Assembly (NCBI GenBank): GCA_028714635.1
Contig: JAQTLZ010000002.1
Location: 121,841 to 185,840, forward strand
Direction of reading: 5' to 3'
Source: Minisyncoccota bacterium
GTDB taxonomy: Bacteria > Patescibacteriota > Minisyncoccia > Phycocordibacterales > JAQTLZ01
DNA: 64,000 bases
The position numbers were made by a program, and so were the translations under genes. Below, piece after piece: positions 393 to 59,343 of this stretch. The notes beneath the pieces are model-generated. The model had not been told where the DNA came from and made no database searches. It saw nothing but the letters and a program-made list of their open reading frames with translations. The first letter of the stretch is position 1, and each line of letters opens with the position of its first letter.

Positions 393-1151
393 ATGCCCCT
401 TTTTTTTCTCGTTTTTGTCGTCGTCGTATTATTGTTTCTCTCGCTTAAGGTTTTGAAGGAGTACGAGCGGGGAGTCATTTTCTTTCTTGGAAAATCTACT
501 GGTATGCGAGGTCCCGGACTTATTATTCTCGTCCCCATTTTGGAAAAGATGACGCGAGTGGAGCTTCGTACTATCACGATGAATATTCCGTCCCAGAAAA
601 TTATTACCAAAGATAATGTGTCTATTGATATCGCCGCTGTCGCTTATTATCACGTCGTCGATTCAATAAAATCTGTCATTGCTATTGAAAATGTTGCAAG
701 CGCAGTCAATCAAATCAGTCAGACTACGGTGCGAAATGTCGTCGGGCGATTCAAGCTCGATGAGCTTCTTTCGCAGACTTCAGAGATCAATATAGACATA
801 AAAGATACGATAGACAGCCATACCGAGCCGTGGGGAGTGCAGGTCACCGCCGTAGAAATCAAAGACATTACGCTTCCTGATAACATGCAAAGAGCGATGG
901 CAAAAGAAGCTGAAGCAGAACGAGAAAGACGGGCAAAAATTGTTGCGGCAGAAGGAGAATTTCAGGCGGCGGTAAAGCTTGGCGAAGCGGCAGATATTAT
1001 TTCGGCTCACCCCGTAGCATTGCAACTGAGGACACTTCAAACAATGGCAGAGATTGCTACCGAGAGAAATTCTACAATTATTTTCCCAGCGCAATTCATG
1101 ACGACTGTTGCGGATGCGATGGCGACAATTCGACAGGATAACAAGAAATAG
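393..1151 (+). CDS. SPFH/band-7 (stomatin/prohibitin-like) membrane protein
   Basis: 252 aa. N-terminal TM helix, then [27 protein letters not shown] and an [11 protein letters not shown] coiled region, which are SPFH domain hallmarks. Confidence 0.9.
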
Positions 1152-44977: not shown

Positions 44978-45030
44978 ACCTTGAGTGTTTTGTAATCAAA
45001 AAGCGAAAGGTGTACAGCTCCTGTAAGGAG
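44978..45030 (+). ncRNA. copy C of the GUACWG/UGUAA motif, upstream of metG
   Basis: P-a ACCTT(44978-44982)/AAGGT(45007-45011) enclosing hairpin TTTTG-TAAT-CAAAA. GTACAG 45012-45017. CTCC-TGTAA-GGAG 45018-45030. Confidence 0.55.
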
Positions 45031-45051
45031 GAATATCAAAGACATAATTTC

Positions 45052-46482
45052 ATGGCAGAAAAGAAATCCTTTTATATCACGACGACTCTTCCGTACGTGA
45101 ATTCTGATCCACATATCGGTTTTGCCGCGGAAATTGTACACGCTGATATTCTGGCTCGCTACGCGCGTCTCATGGGCCAAAGCGTTTTCTTTAATACCGG
45201 TACGGATGAACATGGCATAAAAGTGTATCGAAAGGCCGAGGAAGAGGGAATTTCTACTCAAAAATATGTTGATGAAAAAGCAACGCATTTTGAAAGCCTA
45301 AAACTTTCTCTCAACTTGAGTTTCAATAGTTTTATTCGCACTACGGACGCGAAGCATAAAAAAGCGGCGGGAAGCTTTTGGGAGGCCTGTGCTGCTTCCG
45401 GCGACATCTACAAAAAAGCCTACAAAATTAAATATTGCGTCGGCTGTGAACTTGAAAAGACAGAATCGGAACTTATAAACGGCAGATGCGCGATACACCC
45501 GAATTTAGAGCTCGAGATTATTGAAGAAGAAAATTATTTTTTTAGATTTTCAAAATATCAGAAAGTGCTTCTGGATTTGTATGAAAAAAATCCAGAATTT
45601 GTTGTTCCGGCAACGCGTCTACACGAGATAAAAGCATTTGTTGAAAGGGGACTTGAAGATTTTTCAATTTCCCGTTTAAAAAGCAAAATGCCGTGGGGAG
45701 TGGATGTTCCTGGAGATGAAGAGCATGTTATGTACGTTTGGTTTGATGCACTTGTGAATTATATTGATGTTATCGGCTGGCCAGAAAATGAAACCGAATT
45801 TGCAAAATGGTGGCCAGGAATTCAAATCGCTGGGAAAGACAACCTTCGTCAGCAATCGGCAATGTGGCAGGCGATGCTTCTCTCCGCGGGGCTTCAAAAT
45901 TCAAAACAAATAATCCTTCGCGGGCACATAATTAGCGGCGGGCAAAAAATGTCCAAGTCCCTAGGCAATGTCATAAGCCCTACTGATCTGGTAAAAGAAT
46001 ACGGCACGGATGCTGTGCGCTATTTCCTTGCTAGGGAAGTGAATCCGTTTGAAGATAGTGATGTAACGCTCGAGCGTATTAAAGAAGCCTATAACGCGAA
46101 TCTTGCGAATGGCTTGGGGAATCTCGTCGCTCGAATAATGAAAATGGCACAAACAAATTTAGAAAAGGCGCCGAAAATTCCAGAGGATCCAATCCCAGAA
46201 ATATTTAAAAAAGCCATTGAAAAATACGATATAAAAACCGCGGCGGACTACGTATGGAAAGAAATCGCGGTGCTTGATTCGATCATTCAAGAAGAAGAGC
46301 CGTTCAAGCTTATAAAAACGAACAAAGCAGAGGCGATAACCATTATTGAAGATCTCTGCGTCCGTCTCTACACAATCGGCAGAATGTTAAATTCAATATT
46401 GCCCGAAACGTCAGAAAAAATTAAATCCGCGGTGAAGGCAAACAAAATGCCCGAAGTTTCTCTTTTTCCGAGGAAGGAATAA
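45052..46482 (+). CDS. metG: methionine--tRNA ligase (short form)
   Basis: ATG at 45052 (MAEKKSFYITTTLPYVNSDPHIGF = HIGH region), and KMSKSLGN. The track start at 45010 reads through the RNA motif. Confidence 0.95.
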   Translation: MAEKKSFYITTTLPYVNSDPHIGFAAEIVHADILARYARLMGQSVFFNTGTDEHGIKVYRKAEEEGISTQKYVDEKATHFESLKLSLNLSFNSFIRTTDAKHKKAAGSFWEACAASGDIYKKAYKIKYCVGCELEKTESELINGRCAIHPNLELEIIEEENYFFRFSKYQKVLLDLYEKNPEFVVPATRLHEIKAFVERGLEDFSISRLKSKMPWGVDVPGDEEHVMYVWFDALVNYIDVIGWPENETEFAKWWPGIQIAGKDNLRQQSAMWQAMLLSAGLQNSKQIILRGHIISGGQKMSKSLGNVISPTDLVKEYGTDAVRYFLAREVNPFEDSDVTLERIKEAYNANLANGLGNLVARIMKMAQTNLEKAPKIPEDPIPEIFKKAIEKYDIKTAADYVWKEIAVLDSIIQEEEPFKLIKTNKAEAITIIEDLCVRLYTIGRMLNSILPETSEKIKSAVKANKMPEVSLFPRKE

Positions 46483-46490
46483 AGCGAATA

Positions 46491-46519
46491 TTGACAACAC
46501 TTTCTTTTTTCTATCTAAT
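46491..46519 (+). promoter_or_regulatory. sigma70-like promoter of a high-GC cassette
   Basis: TTGACA (46491-46496), 17-nt spacer, TCTAAT (46514-46519). Then hairpin AGCTGA..TCAGCT (46530-46545) and Shine-Dalgarno site GAGGAAGGG (46557-46565). Confidence 0.55.
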
Positions 46520-46572
46520 CTATCCAGTGAGCTGATGAATCAGCTTTGGCCTTTTGAGGAAGGGATTCCCCC

Positions 46573-47199
46573 ATGTTAGATAATTGGATCGCGGTGCTTT
46601 TCGTGGTAATGGCTGTTGTTCTATGTCTCGTCGTTCTGTACATTACGATCCTTGCCGTGAAGAATCCGAAGCTTACACTGAAGGCAACATTACGATTCCG
46701 GGAGTACGCAGATCTCGGGGTTCTGCAGGTACCGGCGGATTACAATCATAGGACGTATTTGGCATCCTGTGTTCAAAGGAATGGAGACGAGTGGGATTTC
46801 GATTCAGGTGCAACAGACGCTAATTTCCCGACGCCGAGTCGTATCTTGCGTCCAGGAGACAGGCTTCGTGTCCGAATTTGGGAGCAGATAGGAGGTACCA
46901 ACTCCCATACACGGATGGAGTTTCTCGATAGTCTCGGCGCCGTCTATCCGGGCGTTCAGGGTATTTGTCTCTTGTGTGAGGAGATGGAGCCGAAGTTGCC
47001 ACATCACCATTCCAATTTGTGGTTCGGCTCGTATGATCGGCCGGAGAACCTTTTTCAAGACGAGCGTGGTAATCAGATGTTTATGCGCGCGCTTGTCGTG
47101 AAAGATCCCGATTCGATCTTTCTGTGTCTCTGCTCATTCGGTTCCCCTTCGGATGACAATGAGATGGGACTTATCGTTTGTTTTACCGAAGCGGGCTAA
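46573..47199 (+). CDS. membrane-anchored hypothetical protein (orphan, high-GC cassette)
   Basis: 208 aa with an N-terminal TM helix. No motif recognised. Confidence 0.6.
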   Translation: MLDNWIAVLFVVMAVVLCLVVLYITILAVKNPKLTLKATLRFREYADLGVLQVPADYNHRTYLASCVQRNGDEWDFDSGATDANFPTPSRILRPGDRLRVRIWEQIGGTNSHTRMEFLDSLGAVYPGVQGICLLCEEMEPKLPHHHSNLWFGSYDRPENLFQDERGNQMFMRALVVKDPDSIFLCLCSFGSPSDDNEMGLIVCFTEAG

Positions 47200-47340
47200 G
47201 TGTCGCTTTGTGCACGAAACGTTTACTACTGAACCGCCTTTCCGAAAGGAATAGGAGGTTCTTTTATTTATTGGACAAAACTTCAGTTAGATCCTAGTAT
47301 TCTTAATAGGAAACGTGGTGTTTCCGGAAAGGAGTTTGCA

Positions 47341-47619
47341 TTGGAATACGAAATACAGTTGAAAGACAACTCGGTTCCTGGAACGCATCTGACATTACCA
47401 GGTTCCTACGAGTTCTTTGGCCCGTTCGGTTCCATCCAACAGGCTGAAGATCTTCTGAGAGCAAAAGGTTGGAGGCGGACAGAGCGTCTTGATCCCAACA
47501 TTTTGTGCGAGCCGATTATTGTGGAATGGCTGGGGTTGGCACCTCATTTGGTGATGACCATCAATACTATTCCAGAACGGTCTCGCAAATCTCCGGAAGT
47601 TTTGCCTGCTGCCGCGTGA
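47341..47619 (+). CDS. small hypothetical protein (orphan, high-GC cassette)
   Basis: 92 aa. TTG start 6 nt after GGAAAGGAG. Upstream TTGGAC-18 nt-TAGTAT (47271-47300) and hairpin GGAAAC-GTGGT-GTTTCC (47309-47325). Confidence 0.5.
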   Translation: MEYEIQLKDNSVPGTHLTLPGSYEFFGPFGSIQQAEDLLRAKGWRRTERLDPNILCEPIIVEWLGLAPHLVMTINTIPERSRKSPEVLPAAA

Positions 47620-47634
47620 AGTCTCAATTTTTCG

Positions 47635-47674
47635 AATGCCTGGCGTGAGTTCATCGCGCTAGGCATTTTATTTT
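47635..47674 (+). terminator. rho-independent terminator
   Basis: AATGCCTGGCG/CGCTAGGCATT stem (one G-U pair), then TTTATTTT. Confidence 0.7.
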
Positions 47675-47689
47675 GTTAAAATTGAGCGA

Positions 47690-48529
47690 ATGAAATTTCA
47701 ATTTGTAGATATTCATACTCATGTCAATTTTGTTGCGTTTGAGAAAGACCGTGAGGAGGTTATTCAACGTGCCTCGGATGCGGGAGTTGCGATGATAAAT
47801 GTTGGTACGCAGGTTGATACTTCAAAAAAGGCTATTGAGATGGCTGAGAAATATGAGAATTGTTACGCAATTGTCGGGCTTCACCCAGTTCATACTTCCA
47901 GATCTTTTCATGATGAAAAGGAACTAGGTGAAGGTGGAAAAGAATTTACTTCAAGAGGTGAGCAATTTGATACGAGCGTTTATCGAAGCATGCTGAAGCA
48001 TCCGAAAGTAGTGGGGATAGGGGAATGCGGACTCGACTACTATCATCTCGATGAGGAATCAATAAAAATCCAGCGGGAGAATTTCGAAATGCAGATTGAT
48101 TTGGCGAATGAAGCGGGGAAGTCCCTGATGCTTCATGTTCGCTCGAATAAAGAATCGGGGAAAAGTGCTTATAAAGATGCACTGGAGATTTTGAAAGCTC
48201 GGGCAAAAGTAAAAGGAAATTTTCATTTCTTTGCTGGCTCATGGGAAGAAGCAAAAGAAATTCTTGATTTTGGTTACACAATTTCTTTTACGGGGGTAAT
48301 TACGTTTGCCAGAGACTATGACGAAGTGATAAAAAACGCTCCGCTCGATATGATTATGTCCGAAACGGATGCTCCGTACGTTTCTCCCGCGCCATTTCGT
48401 GGAAAAAGAAACGAGCCTGCTCATGTGAGGGAAGTGGTGAAGAAAATTGCTGAAATTCGGGGAGAGGATTATGAGAAAGTACCAGCCCAGCTTGCCGAAA
48501 ACGCGGGACGCGTTTTCGGTCTTTGGTAA
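47690..48529 (+). CDS. TatD-family metal-dependent hydrolase/DNase
   Basis: 279 aa. VDIHTHVNF and GECGLDYYH motifs. TGTTAAAAT -10 box ends 7 nt before the ATG. Confidence 0.9.
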   Translation: MKFQFVDIHTHVNFVAFEKDREEVIQRASDAGVAMINVGTQVDTSKKAIEMAEKYENCYAIVGLHPVHTSRSFHDEKELGEGGKEFTSRGEQFDTSVYRSMLKHPKVVGIGECGLDYYHLDEESIKIQRENFEMQIDLANEAGKSLMLHVRSNKESGKSAYKDALEILKARAKVKGNFHFFAGSWEEAKEILDFGYTISFTGVITFARDYDEVIKNAPLDMIMSETDAPYVSPAPFRGKRNEPAHVREVVKKIAEIRGEDYEKVPAQLAENAGRVFGLW

Positions 48530-57399: not shown

Positions 57400-59343
57400 A
57401 TGAATTATAAAACAAAGAGAGTAGTTGCAGGAGTTCTCGGTTTGGCAATGGCAGTCTCAATGGTTGCTGCTGCTGGAGGAGCTCTTACAGCTTTGGCTTC
57501 GTTCGACGTAAACCTTACTGTCGGCTCAACAGGAGCAGATGTAACGGCACTTCAAAACTGGCTTATTGAGAACGGATTTCTCAGTATCCCAGCTGCGACT
57601 GGCTACTTCGGTCCTTTGACCCAATCAGCAGTTGCTGCTTATCAGACAAGTGTTGGTATTACACCAGCAGCTGGTTATGTAGGTCCAATCACTCGAGCTA
57701 AGCTCAACGCGGGCGGTTCAGTTTCTGGAAACTTCCCAGCAGGTTGTACAAGCGCTTCAGGTTACAGCAGTGTAACAGGATTGCCTTGCGCACCGATTGG
57801 TTTCCCAGCAGGATGTACTTCAGCTTCAGGATTTAGTTCAACAACTGGACAGCCATGTTCGGGTGGTGGATCTTTCCCAGCAGGATGTACTTCAGCTTCA
57901 GGATTTAGCACAACAACCGGAATGTCATGTTCTGGCGGTTCATCAGGAGGTGGTTCACTTTCTGGTGGCGCAGGTGAAATAACAGTAACTGCTAAGACAG
58001 CTGGTACAGAAACCACTGTTGGCGAAGGAAAAGAGGAAAAGGTCCTCGGTATGGAGATAGAGGCTGATGATAACTCTGATGCTGAAATCACTTCTATGCG
58101 ACTTATCGCTACTGTTGACACCGATGGAGCAACAAGATTCAACCGATATGTTGACGAAGTAAAGGTATATATGGGAAGCAAAGAGGTAGGTTCATTGGAT
58201 TCATCTGATTTCTCACGAGATGCAGCTGAATTCACTGGAACCATTTCTCTCCATGGTGCCGTCGTACAGAAAGGCGAGAAAGTTCGATTCTATGTCGCTT
58301 TTGTCGCTAACAACATTATTGATTCTGATGATCTAGACAATACGATCAATCTCGTCGTAAGTCGAATCCGATTTACTGACGCTACAGGAGCAATCCTCAC
58401 AAATGAGGACATTGATACTGATGATGTGACCGTATCTTTCGAAGACGCAACAGAAAGTGATGGAGCAAAGGTGCAATCAGACTCTTCTACACCTGATGCA
58501 CAGATTTTGAAAGTTGAAGATAATAGTAGTTCAGAAGAATACCATATCTTCTCATTCAAGATTAAGTCAGACTCAGGCGCATCTGATATGGAGGTCACAT
58601 CGCTTCCTATCAACCTCTCAATCTACAACGCATCTACTACAGCTATCAACACGGAAGACTTGATTGATGATATGTATGTGATGATTGGTGGAAAGAAGTA
58701 TGATGATTACACATTCGACAACACAAGTATTGCTACAGCTAGTACAGAGACCGCTATAGCTACCTTCACCATAGACGAAGGAGATCTAACAGTTGACGGT
58801 GGTACTACTGAGCAAGCTAAGGTGTACGTCAAATTCGGTAGACAAGAAGACAAATACGCTGCTGCTGATACAACAGTTACAGCTTCTGTCGTCGGTTCTA
58901 CTATTGACGCAGAAAACTCTAACGGTGATACCATTGACTTGACTGGTACTGTCACTGGAAAGACAATGACAGCTGCTATTTCTGCTGCTGAAGTCACAGA
59001 CTTCACTTGGGCAGTAGGAACTGGCGGAACATACATAGACTTCTTCTTCACAGTAACAGCTGGCGATGAAGACTTCGATGTTCTTACAGCAAGCATTGCT
59101 TCTTCTACATCTGGTAATGCAACAACATCTTCTGGAACTCTCACAAAGAGCTCTGGCGATGATGTAACTAGCATTTCAGGAGGATTCACTGTCGCTTCTG
59201 GAGATACAACAACGTTCAAAGTTAGATACTTGGTAACAGGTTCTAACGGAACAATCTCAACAGTAACGATTACTTCTGTGGCTGGACAAGAGGTACCTGA
59301 CAACAAACAGGAATCTCCTACAGCAACAAGAAACGTTTACTAA
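57400..59343 (+). CDS. secreted peptidoglycan-binding-domain protein with Cys-repeat and Thr/Ser/Asp-rich beta region
   Basis: 647 aa. Signal/TM, PG_binding_1-like segment (GADVTALQNWL..GYFGPLTQSAVAAYQ), and three FPAGCTSASG(F/Y)S..TG..C repeats. Confidence 0.75.
   Translation: MNYKTKRVVAGVLGLAMAVSMVAAAGGALTALASFDVNLTVGSTGADVTALQNWLIENGFLSIPAATGYFGPLTQSAVAAYQTSVGITPAAGYVGPITRAKLNAGGSVSGNFPAGCTSASGYSSVTGLPCAPIGFPAGCTSASGFSSTTGQPCSGGGSFPAGCTSASGFSTTTGMSCSGGSSGGGSLSGGAGEITVTAKTAGTETTVGEGKEEKVLGMEIEADDNSDAEITSMRLIATVDTDGATRFNRYVDEVKVYMGSKEVGSLDSSDFSRDAAEFTGTISLHGAVVQKGEKVRFYVAFVANNIIDSDDLDNTINLVVSRIRFTDATGAILTNEDIDTDDVTVSFEDATESDGAKVQSDSSTPDAQILKVEDNSSSEEYHIFSFKIKSDSGASDMEVTSLPINLSIYNASTTAINTEDLIDDMYVMIGGKKYDDYTFDNTSIATASTETAIATFTIDEGDLTVDGGTTEQAKVYVKFGRQEDKYAAADTTVTASVVGSTIDAENSNGDTIDLTGTVTGKTMTAAISAAEVTDFTWAVGTGGTYIDFFFTVTAGDEDFDVLTASIASSTSGNATTSSGTLTKSSGDDVTSISGGFTVASGDTTTFKVRYLVTGSNGTISTVTITSVAGQEVPDNKQESPTATRNVY
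57733..57945 (+). repeat. three tandem 69-72-nt coding repeats
   Basis: Units start at 57733, 57802 and 57874. Units 2 and 3 share an identical 35-nt stretch, TTCCCAGCAGGATGTACTTCAGCTTCAGGATTTAG. Confidence 0.85.

What the first reader, a model, noticed from the sequence alone, without database searches (positions are those of the whole stretch)
46491..47675. Two-gene high-GC cassette (membrane-anchored 208-aa orphan plus 92-aa orphan), each gene with its own promoter, hairpin and SD site
The segment lies between metG and tatD and contains two units.

First unit: TTGACA, 17-nt spacer, TCTAAT; hairpin AGCTGA/TCAGCT; Shine-Dalgarno site GAGGAAGGG; ATG at 46573; and a terminator-like hairpin near 47235-47260.

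Second unit: TTGGAC, 18-nt spacer, TAGTAT (47271-47300); hairpin GGAAAC-GTGGT-GTTTCC (47309-47325); Shine-Dalgarno site GGAAAGGAG; TTG at 47341; and a terminator at 47635-47674.

Neither protein has a recognisable motif. The repeated promoter-hairpin-SD grammar is the clearest example of the cassette architecture. The pairing of a TM-anchored protein with a small soluble partner resembles effector/immunity or toxin/antitoxin-like pairs, although that is speculation.
Basis: partly seen in the sequence, partly recalled or inferred. Interest (0 to 1): 0.5.

Follow-up and report, generated by a model that had tools for sequence, protein, structure and literature searches.

The report
Membrane-anchored relic of a retroelement-diversified lectin-fold protein
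The 208-aa gene is not an orphan: it is a diverged, membrane-anchored relative of the lectin-fold proteins that ultra-small (CPR) bacteria hypermutate with diversity-generating retroelements, it shows none of the hypermutation signals here, and the 92-aa neighbour is an unrelated orphan, so nothing supports a toxin/antitoxin pair.

Summary
The interpretation does not hold.

**ORF-A (46573-47199)**
- It belongs to a large Pfam-less family: 987 clusters at 50% identity, and all 38 genome loci found are Patescibacteria.
- In 12 of 42 related loci the family gene is the target of a complete diversity-generating retroelement (DGR). The layout is target, template repeat (TR), avd on the opposite strand, then reverse transcriptase (RT). 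The variable repeat (VR) differs from the TR almost only at TR adenines.
- The window copy looks detached from any DGR. There is no RT, avd or TR in 64 kb. Its VR-equivalent carries indels. It lacks the conserved 3' end and downstream element. A TR profile that recognises the VR in all 41 other loci does not recognise it.

**ORF-B (47341-47619)**
- It has no homologue anywhere and never accompanies family members. Its coding status is unresolved.

**Setting**
- The metG|tatD junction is a recurrent insertion hotspot in relatives.

**Verdict:** an ordinary accessory insertion carrying a probably fossil DGR target. Interest is modest.

The parts
45010..46482 (+). metG (methionyl-tRNA synthetase), upstream flank
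   Evidence: Pfam tRNA-synt_1g, E 7.8e-93. The order AI-2E, metG, tatD, rpsF is conserved in relatives.
46491..46519 (+). Promoter-like site: TTGACA, 17-nt spacer, TCTAAT, upstream of ORF-A
   Evidence: Read directly from the sequence. It is the only exact TTGACA-N17-TNTAAT match in the window. The consensus scan did not call it because the -10 hexamer lacks A at position 2. Its function is untested.
46530..46545 (+). Small 5'-UTR hairpin AGCTGA-TGAA-TCAGCT
   Evidence: Present, but no more stable than shuffles (z -0.68).
46556..46564 (+). Shine-Dalgarno-like GAGGAAGGG, 8 nt before the ATG
   Evidence: Read directly from the sequence.
46573..47199 (+). ORF-A, 208 aa: N-terminal transmembrane helix plus a C-type-lectin-like domain; a diverged member of the CPR DGR variable-protein family
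46576..46662 (+). Transmembrane helix of ORF-A (residues 2-30)
   Evidence: AF2 helix 2-30. Kyte-Doolittle 19-aa mean is 3.32, the highest of 152 family representatives; only two others have signal-peptide-like N-termini.
47068..47190 (+). VR-equivalent region of ORF-A (about residues 166-206), degenerate
   Evidence: It has insertions relative to the family and matches 5 of 13 conserved framework columns. Against the best TR it is 50% identical at non-A sites and 46% at A sites. nhmmer with the TR profile finds nothing, even at E<=1000 on a 2-kb target. It lacks the family's ...TTCTGCGAC end.
47231..47271 (+). Imperfect hairpin with a GAAA loop followed by TTTTATTTATT: terminator-like, after ORF-A
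   Evidence: -20 kcal/mol for the 71-nt stretch, z -2.4. In the sister MAG the loop bases 47244-45 read AG instead of GA and the stem is unchanged.
47271..47300 (+). Promoter-like site: TTGGAC, 18-nt spacer, TAGTAT (or TGGACA, 17-nt spacer, TAGTAT), upstream of ORF-B
   Evidence: The scan scores it 9 of 12, but such sites occur at chance frequency in the region.
47309..47325 (+). Small hairpin GGAAAC-GTGGT-GTTTCC
   Evidence: Present, but not significant (z -0.93).
47326..47334 (+). Shine-Dalgarno-like GGAAAGGAG, 6 nt before the TTG
   Evidence: Read directly from the sequence.
47341..47619 (+). ORF-B, 92 aa, TTG start: a lineage-specific orphan with unresolved coding status
   Evidence: Its only match is itself. 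There are no significant Pfam, PHROG, PADLOC, NCBIfam or PDB hits. It is absent from all related loci. Its codon-usage score is 0.103, against 0.283+-0.106 for host genes and 0.027+-0.126 for shadow ORFs.
47634..47678 (+). Strong intrinsic terminator after ORF-B
   Evidence: 15-bp stem, 7 GC pairs, T-rich tail. z -5.9; 0 of 200 shuffles fold as well.
47690..48529 (+). tatD (TatD-family hydrolase), downstream flank
   Evidence: Pfam TatD_DNase, E 9.8e-75.

Best explanation
The 1.2-kb segment is an accessory insertion at a recurrent hotspot between metG and tatD.

**ORF-A.** It encodes a single-pass membrane-anchored protein. Its globular domain (residues about 42-206) has a C-type-lectin-like fold. 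It descends from the variable (target) proteins of the CPR-specific clade of diversity-generating retroelements (DGRs). In intact elements of this clade the last ~125 nt of the target gene (the variable repeat, VR) is rewritten from a nearby template repeat (TR). An avd-assisted reverse transcriptase does this, and it misincorporates opposite TR adenines. That diversifies a ligand-binding surface.

**The copy in this window appears detached from that machinery.** It keeps the scaffold, but its VR-equivalent has drifted and carries indels. It has lost the conserved GC-rich 3' end and the conserved downstream element. No TR, avd or RT lies within 64 kb. It most likely now acts as a fixed-sequence, membrane-tethered binding protein. 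It has its own promoter-like site, Shine-Dalgarno site and terminator.

**ORF-B.** It is an unrelated, lineage-specific small ORF, either a young gene or non-coding. It sits where TR, avd and RT sit in intact cassettes, and I found no link to ORF-A.

**Shown:** family membership, the DGR nature of the family, the fold, and the absence of the DGR parts and signatures.
**Inferred:** the present function as a binding protein, the membrane topology, and the loss of diversification.
For: **ORF-A belongs to a large family.**
- Remote homologues score E 2e-22 to 2e-19.
- A profile search finds 987 clusters at 50% identity.
- All 38 genome loci are Patescibacteria.

**The family is a DGR target family.**
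- In L001, 122 nt at the 3' end of the gene repeat 487 nt downstream at 87% identity. Fifteen of the 16 mismatches have A in the downstream copy.
- The same holds in 12 of 42 loci: 15/15, 17/17 and 18/19 mismatches at TR adenines.
- Those loci also carry an RT 63-76% identical to the L001 RT, with Pfam RVT_1.
- They carry an avd on the opposite strand (Pfam bAvd 43.7 bits against a cut-off of 40; NCBIfam DivGenRetAVD E 3e-13).
- L042 is a remote target of the L035 TR in the same genome: 91 of 91 non-A sites are identical, and 16 of 31 A sites.

**Fold.**
- AF2 gives pLDDT 92 and pTM 0.80.

**Detachment from the DGR.**
- tblastn with RT and Avd, a repeat search, an adenine-tolerant scan and nhmmer find nothing in the window.
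- The TR profile hits the VR in all 41 other loci with a complete gene 3' end, but not ORF-A.
- Framework conservation in the VR region is 0.38, against a family mean of 0.71 (sd 0.14).
- The conserved 3' end and downstream element are absent.
- ORF-A and ORF-B are nucleotide-identical in three assemblies, while the neighbouring tatD has 3 SNPs.

**Hotspot.**
- In relatives, 24 of 56 metG-tatD pairs abut and 32 carry unrelated inserts of 136-1740 nt.

**Composition.**
- Family genes are GC-richer than their flanks in 39 of 39 loci, by 0.11 on average.

**Literature.**
- CPR DGRs form their own clade. Their targets lack transmembrane or known domains and were suspected to be novel C-Lec folds (PMC8144416).
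- The CPR set mostly has architecture B3 and unclassified VR classes (PMC5758913).
Against: - Only 64 kb of a 195-kb contig, and of an incomplete MAG, could be searched. DGRs can act on remote targets, as L042 and L035 show, so a divergent TR elsewhere cannot be excluded.
- The three assemblies with identical sequence may come from one study or population, so their identity is weak evidence for inactivity.
- The topology of the transmembrane anchor and any ligand are unknown.
- ORF-B's status is unresolved: its frame scores best of the six, but 29% of shadow ORFs score as high.
Confidence: 0.7

Rival explanations
1. ORF-A is still an active DGR target. It would be diversified in trans by a divergent retroelement whose TR and RT lie outside the 64-kb window or on another contig.
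For: - Remote targets exist in this family: L042 is served by the TR of L035.
- About 28 of 42 family loci have no RT within the fetched flanks, yet they carry VRs that match TRs from other genomes at 70-100% of non-A sites.
- The RT clade is very abundant, with at least 7,997 clusters at 90% identity.
- Only part of the genome could be inspected.
Against: - ORF-A's VR-equivalent is the only one not recognised by the TR profile; the VR is recognised in all 41 other loci.
- It has indels relative to the family framework.
- It lacks the conserved TTCTGCGAC end and the downstream element found in 29 of 41 loci.
- Its sequence is invariant across three assemblies.
- About 8 kb of extra sequence from the sister MAG, upstream of the window's start, contains no RT gene.
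Confidence: 0.12
2. ORF-A and ORF-B form a toxin/antitoxin-like or effector/immunity pair.
For: - The two genes are adjacent, on the same strand and similar in GC (0.499 and 0.495).
- One is membrane-anchored and the other small and soluble.
- The same junction holds true toxin/antitoxin pairs (RelE/Phd-like, HicAB-like) in some relatives.
Against: - There is no co-occurrence: ORF-B has no homologue at all.
- A 141-nt spacer with a terminator-like hairpin and separate promoter-like sites separates them.
- There are no toxin, antitoxin or defence domains.
- The ORF-A family is explained by DGR biology and is normally found without any such partner.
Confidence: 0.04
3. ORF-B is not a gene. In this reading, 47200-47690 is non-coding remnant DNA, for example the decayed TR-avd-RT part of a former cassette or an untranslated 3' region, in which an open frame persists by chance.
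For: - There is no homologue among 5.8 billion proteins.
- It has a TTG start.
- The codon-usage score is 0.103, and 29% of shadow ORFs score at least that high.
- It sits exactly where TR, avd and RT lie in intact cassettes.
- L037 shows that cassette decay happens in this family: a target followed by only a 16-aa avd fragment.
- The RNA fold is slightly more stable than shuffles (z -2.1).
Against: - No nucleotide or protein similarity to cassette sequence is left.
- It has a good AGGAG Shine-Dalgarno site 6 nt upstream and a strong dedicated terminator.
- The annotated frame scores best of the six.
- The real gene ORF-A scores even lower (0.076), so low codon adaptation is not informative here.
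Confidence: 0.3

Closest known systems
Variable (target) proteins of the CPR/Patescibacteria DGR clade ('DGR clade 2' of Roux et al. 2021, PMC8144416; 'CPR set', architecture B3, unclassified VR classes of Wu et al. 2018, PMC5758913)
   Same: - The scaffold is homologous: 35-42% identity, with shared motifs ADLGVxxVP, DANFPxPSRILxPGDxLRVR, RMxFL and GxQG.
- Size is similar (about 170-250 aa).
- The gene is GC-richer than its flanks.
- It is inserted between housekeeping genes.
   Different: - It has a strong N-terminal transmembrane helix, seen in 1 of 152 representatives.
- Its VR-equivalent is degenerate, with indels.
- It lacks the conserved 3' end and downstream element.
- There is no TR, avd or RT within 64 kb.
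Structurally characterised DGR variable proteins with a C-type-lectin fold (Bordetella phage Mtd, Treponema TvpA, Thermus TaqVP, archaeal AvpA; PMC2408619, PMC6328139, PMC5006420)
   Same: - The general design is shared: a C-terminal lectin-type fold with the diversified residues at the extreme C-terminus of the protein.
   Different: - Here the protein is probably no longer diversified.
Type II toxin-antitoxin pairs and effector/immunity pairs
   Same: Two small adjacent genes on the same strand in an accessory insertion. Genuine toxin/antitoxin genes occupy the same junction in some relatives.
   Different: There is no conserved pairing, no toxin or antitoxin domains, and no operon-like coupling.

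Membership tests
CPR DGR variable-protein family (evolutionary membership) | Significant sequence homology of the scaffold to proteins whose 3' ends are demonstrable VRs | tested here: met
   E 2e-22 to 2e-19 against P0002-P0004. P0002 has a VR/TR pair. The profile search returns 987 clusters. ORF-A matches 66% of conserved scaffold columns, against a family mean of 81%.
CPR DGR variable-protein family (evolutionary membership) | C-type-lectin-type fold carrying the variable residues | tested here: met
   [not shown]
Functional DGR target (currently diversified) | A VR with a cognate TR that differs from it essentially only at TR adenines | tested here: not met
   No repeat of the ORF-A 3' end exists in the 64-kb window. 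The best alignment to 12 family TRs is 50% identical at non-A sites and 46% at A sites. The TR profile gives no hit. The rest of the genome could not be searched.
Functional DGR target (currently diversified) | DGR reverse transcriptase and accessory Avd in the same genome, usually adjacent | tested here: not met
   tblastn with RT and Avd finds nothing in the window. There is no RT gene in about 8 kb of extra upstream sequence from the sister MAG. This covers only part of the genome.
Functional DGR target (currently diversified) | Conserved GC-rich VR 3' end (IMH-like) and conserved downstream element or hairpin used for target recognition | tested here: not met
   The family has ...GCCTTCCTCTGCTTCTGCGAC...TAG followed by TCCTTGGAAACTTGG...GGGTCTTAGACCC... 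and a terminator. The downstream element is found in 29 of 41 loci. The window has neither. That this element functions in target recognition is inferred by analogy with phage BPP-1 (PMC3240598).
Functional DGR target (currently diversified) | Population-level sequence variation confined to the VR | tested here: inconclusive
   ORF-A is identical in two MAGs and one Logan assembly. The samples may be related, and read-level data were not available.
Toxin-antitoxin or effector-immunity pair | Conserved co-occurrence of the two genes | tested here: not met
   ORF-B has no homologue. It is absent from 42 family loci and 80 metG loci.
Toxin-antitoxin or effector-immunity pair | Recognisable toxin, antitoxin or immunity domain in at least one partner | tested here: not met
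   Pfam, PHROGs, PADLOC and NCBIfam give no significant hits. The best is DUF4170 at E 0.032, below the cut-off.
Toxin-antitoxin or effector-immunity pair | Toxicity of one partner neutralised by the other | not testable with these tools
   This needs expression assays.
Sigma-70-type promoter plus intrinsic-terminator transcription units | -35 and -10 hexamers with a 16-18-nt spacer upstream, and a GC-rich hairpin plus T-run downstream | tested here: inconclusive
   The motifs are present. The terminator after ORF-B is strong and the one after ORF-A moderate. Promoter-like sites are not enriched over shuffles. Transcription start sites are untested.

The most novel reading that the evidence does not exclude
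ORF-A is an exapted DGR variable protein. In this reading it is a lectin-fold binding module that escaped its retroelement, gained a membrane anchor, and now acts as a fixed membrane-tethered receptor or adhesin. ORF-B would be a new gene born from the decayed TR-avd-RT part of the old cassette, possibly working with ORF-A. This would be a documented case of domestication of a hypermutation target in a CPR bacterium. It would also be the only one of 152 family representatives with a strong membrane anchor, in a family whose cellular location is an open question (PMC8144416).
Probability: 0.12. Interest if true: 0.55.

Novelty: new member of a known kind. Interest (0 to 1): 0.3.

Why it matters
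**For the finding itself.** The result removes a false 'orphan' label and a speculative toxin/antitoxin reading. The gene is a diverged relative of DGR targets, which are abundant in CPR bacteria.

**Two aspects have some wider value.**
- The large, Pfam-less CPR target family is predicted with high confidence to have a C-type-lectin-like fold. Earlier surveys had left this open (PMC5758913, PMC8144416).
- This copy is the only one of 152 representatives with a clear transmembrane anchor, and it has lost every DGR signature. It is therefore a natural example of what happens to a target after it leaves the retroelement.

**By-products that specialists could use.**
- A strongly conserved DNA element downstream of the VR in this clade.
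- The metG|tatD junction as an insertion hotspot.

Tried and rejected
- **Profile libraries.** Pfam, PHROGs, PADLOC and NCBIfam scans of both proteins and of 84 family members gave nothing significant.
- **ORF-B against solved structures.** The PDB sequence search gave nothing.
- **ORF-B against everything fetched.** I compared it with all fetched proteins, six-frame fragments of the 42 family loci, and ORFs in the metG|tatD gaps of relatives. Nothing matched.
- **RNA searches.** Rfam at E<=1 and tRNA scans of the segment gave nothing.
- **Is the ORF-B region a relic of TR, avd or RT?** tblastn and an nhmmer cassette model gave no signal. The idea stays open only as undetectable decay.
- **First AF2 run.** With 4 sequences it was poor (pLDDT 60). 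I replaced it with the 84-sequence run.
- **AFDB fold library.** It was not available.
- **Other fold searches.** Foldseek against the viral library gave no meaningful hit. Foldseek against PDB supported only 8oks.
- **Genome scan query.** The search for related loci with the 84-sequence alignment failed for lack of a conserved stretch. A 9-sequence alignment worked.
- **Looking for an RT from the same MAG.** Among RT homologues, the only Pacebacteria-named hit listed (P0181) carries accessions from a different MAG.
- **Walking beyond the window.** The left end returned only a 10-kb contig of the sister MAG. The right-end protein is not on record.
- **Codon usage for ORF-B.** It cannot settle whether ORF-B is coding, because the genuine gene ORF-A scores even lower.
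Full report
**1. What is in the sequence**

The window comes from a Candidatus Pacebacteria (CPR/Patescibacteria) metagenome-assembled genome. The two ORFs are identical to the NCBI hypothetical proteins PHS53_02250 (208 aa) and PHS53_02255 (92 aa).

- The flanks are metG (45010-46482) and tatD (47690-48529), both confirmed by Pfam.
- Their statistical weight differs:
  - TTGACA-N17-TCTAAT is the only exact match to TTGACA-N17-TNTAAT in 64 kb.
  - Its -10 hexamer lacks the conserved A at position 2.
  - Promoter-like sites in the region are no more frequent than in shuffles (6 found, 5.3 expected).
  - The two small 5'-UTR hairpins are not significant (z -0.68 and -0.93).
  - The hairpin with T-run after ORF-A is moderate (z -2.4).
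  - The terminator after ORF-B is strong (z -5.9).
- GC is 0.499 for ORF-A and 0.495 for ORF-B, against 0.438 for the window. This is a real but modest rise.

**2. ORF-A is not an orphan**

- A word-indexed search found three remote homologues (39-42% identity, E 2e-22 to 2e-19).
- An exhaustive profile search found 987 clusters at 50% identity, of which 221 score E<=1e-30.
- None of 84 members tested hits any Pfam model.
- A scan of one genome per species gave 38 loci, all Patescibacteria.

**3. The family is a DGR target family**

In locus L001 the last 122 nt of the homologue repeat 487 nt downstream at 87% identity. Fifteen of the 16 mismatches are A in the downstream copy. A 335-aa RVT_1 reverse transcriptase follows.

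A census of 42 loci found 12 complete cassettes. Their layout is target (+), TR of about 120-140 nt, avd (-), RT (+).

- The RTs are 63-76% identical to the L001 RT.
- The avd gene reaches Pfam bAvd at 43.7 bits (cut-off 40) and NCBIfam DivGenRetAVD at E 3e-13.
- VR/TR mismatches fall at TR adenines: 15/15, 17/17, 18/19 and similar.
- Two cassettes carry two targets each.
- L042 is a remote target in the same genome as L035. It is identical to the L035 TR at 91 of 91 non-A sites and at 16 of 31 A sites.

Most loci without an RT still carry VRs that match TRs from other genomes at 70-100% of non-A sites and about 45% of A sites. They are therefore true VRs, presumably served in trans.

This fits the published picture:
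- CPR DGRs form a distinct clade. Their targets usually lack transmembrane or known domains and were suspected to be new C-Lec variants (PMC8144416).
- CPR DGRs mostly have architecture B3 and unclassified VR classes (PMC5758913).
- The RT clade is very large, with at least 7,997 clusters at 90% identity at E<=1e-60.

**4. Fold**

- With an 84-sequence alignment, AlphaFold2 gives pLDDT 92 and pTM 0.80. The model has an N-terminal helix (residues 2-30) and a compact alpha/beta domain (42-206).
- Foldseek supports only the Bd2740 hit (probability 0.98).
- The fold assignment is therefore consistent but of moderate strength. No solved DGR variable protein is among the hits.

**5. The window copy lacks every DGR signature**

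- There is no RT, Avd or TR in 64 kb, by tblastn, a repeat search and an adenine-tolerant scan.
- About 8 kb of extra sequence from the sister MAG, upstream of the window's start, holds no RT gene.
- Against the 12 family TRs, ORF-A's 3' end is 50% identical at non-A sites and 46% at A sites. That is no pattern at all.
- An nhmmer model of the cassette (downstream element plus TR) recognises the VR in all 41 other loci with a complete gene 3' end, including the aberrant L003. It also finds the downstream element in 29 of them.
- The same model finds nothing in ORF-A, even at E<=1000 on a 2-kb target.
- At protein level, ORF-A has insertions in and just before the VR region. It matches 5 of 13 conserved framework columns (0.38; family mean 0.71, sd 0.14). 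It retains 66% of conserved scaffold columns (family mean 81%).
- The family's conserved ...GCCTTCCTCTGCTTCTGCGAC end is absent. So is the DNA element after the stop codon that is conserved across genomes (TCCTTGGAAACTTGG..., GGGTCTTAGACCC, then a conserved terminator).
- ORF-A and ORF-B are nucleotide-identical in two MAGs and a Logan assembly, while tatD next door has 3 SNPs. This is weak evidence, because the samples may be related.
- ORF-A is the only one of 152 representatives with a strong N-terminal transmembrane helix.

The most economical reading is a former DGR target that has left the retroelement and acquired a membrane anchor.

**6. ORF-B**

- It has no homologue in 5.8 billion proteins.
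- It has no significant profile or PDB match.
- It has no counterpart in any family locus or in the metG|tatD gaps of relatives.
- Codon usage is uninformative. ORF-B scores 0.103. Host genes score 0.283+-0.106 and shadow ORFs 0.027+-0.126. The genuine gene ORF-A scores only 0.076.
- Points for a real gene: a good AGGAG site 6 nt before the TTG, and a strong terminator of its own.
- Point against: the complete lack of relatives.
- It occupies the position of TR, avd and RT in intact cassettes, but no similarity to them remains.
- Cassette decay does occur in the family: L037 keeps only a 16-aa avd fragment.

**7. Setting**

- In 80 related metagenome loci (metG 54-65% identical) the order AI-2E, metG, tatD, rpsF is conserved.
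- Of 56 loci with both genes, 24 have them abutting (gap <=32 nt). The other 32 carry inserts of 136-1740 nt.
- The inserts hold unrelated small genes: CsrA-like, CvpA-like, RelE/Phd-like, HicAB-like, AbrB-like, an Avd/IVS-like four-helix protein, NUDIX and DUF559. I named these from their sequences; none was scanned.
- None of these loci has ORF-A or ORF-B. The junction is therefore an insertion hotspot, and the segment is one of many alternative occupants.
- Family genes are GC-richer than their flanks in 39 of 39 loci (mean +0.11).

**8. Verdict**

- The 'orphan' label for ORF-A is wrong.
- ORF-A is a diverged, membrane-anchored, probably fossil member of the CPR DGR variable-protein family (confidence about 0.7 for the whole statement, and more than 0.9 for family membership).
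- The main open alternative is a remote, divergent TR elsewhere in the genome (about 0.12).
- ORF-B remains an unexplained orphan, and I put the chance that it is not a gene at about 0.3.
- Interest is modest: a new member of a known kind, with a few useful by-products.

Noticed in passing
L045-L124 (relatives of window 46483-47689): The metG|tatD junction is an insertion hotspot in related CPR genomes. In 24 of 56 loci the genes abut. The other 32 hold inserts of 136-1740 nt carrying unrelated small genes: CsrA-like, CvpA-like, RelE/Phd-like, HicAB-like and AbrB-like genes, an Avd/23S-IVS-like four-helix protein, NUDIX and DUF559. I named these from their sequences, not from scans.
   Followed up: partly
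L005-L042, the ~100 nt after the stop codon of each family gene (e.g. L024 6526-6626, L034 5871-5960): A DNA element is strongly conserved across genomes just downstream of the VR: TCCTTGGAAACTTGGACACTCAG, then GGGTCTTAGACCC, then TTTGAGCCCTTGCTTCACTGCGAGGGCTC and a T-run. It is found in 29 of 41 loci. It is a candidate target-recognition element plus terminator for this DGR clade.
   Followed up: partly
L037 3382-4300: A family gene with an intact-looking VR is followed only by a 16-aa fragment of avd, with no TR or RT on the 6.8-kb contig. This looks like a decaying cassette.
   Followed up: partly
L035 and L042 (same Nomurabacteria MAG): A second, remote copy of the target gene sits on another contig. 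It matches the L035 TR at 91 of 91 non-A sites and 16 of 31 A sites, so it is a trans target. In L035 only the first 56 residues of the RT were matched.
   Followed up: partly
window 47960 (also 48002, 48004): In the sister MAG (GCA_028711105.1, JAQTSW010000029.1), G>T at 47960 turns tatD codon GAG into TAG, and tatD is not called there. That contig also begins only 261 nt upstream of ORF-A, so the assembly breaks at the metG side of the insertion.
   Followed up: partly
window 47244-47245: The only differences between the two MAGs inside the segment are two adjacent bases in the loop of the hairpin after ORF-A (GA in the window, AG in the sister MAG). The stem is untouched.
   Followed up: no
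L125 (sister-MAG contig overlapping window 393-1151 and extending about 8 kb upstream): The sequence upstream of the window's start carries a ThiF/E1 gene, Multi_ubiq and BubE. It also carries a DNA methylase and an HTH/Peptidase_M78 pair. This looks like a defence-island context.
   Followed up: no
window 57801-57944: Two tandem 72-nt copies at 86% identity, apparently a coding repeat.
   Followed up: no
L003 708-1637 (P0003): This family member has a 309-aa product. It reads through the usual stop position into a ~90-aa C-terminal extension with CxxC-like motifs. Its VR is still recognised by the TR profile (E 3e-18), but it matches individual TRs poorly.
   Followed up: no
window 47300-47633: The ORF-B region folds slightly better than shuffles as RNA (z -2.09; 2 of 100 shuffles fold as well). 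This is too weak to interpret.
   Followed up: no
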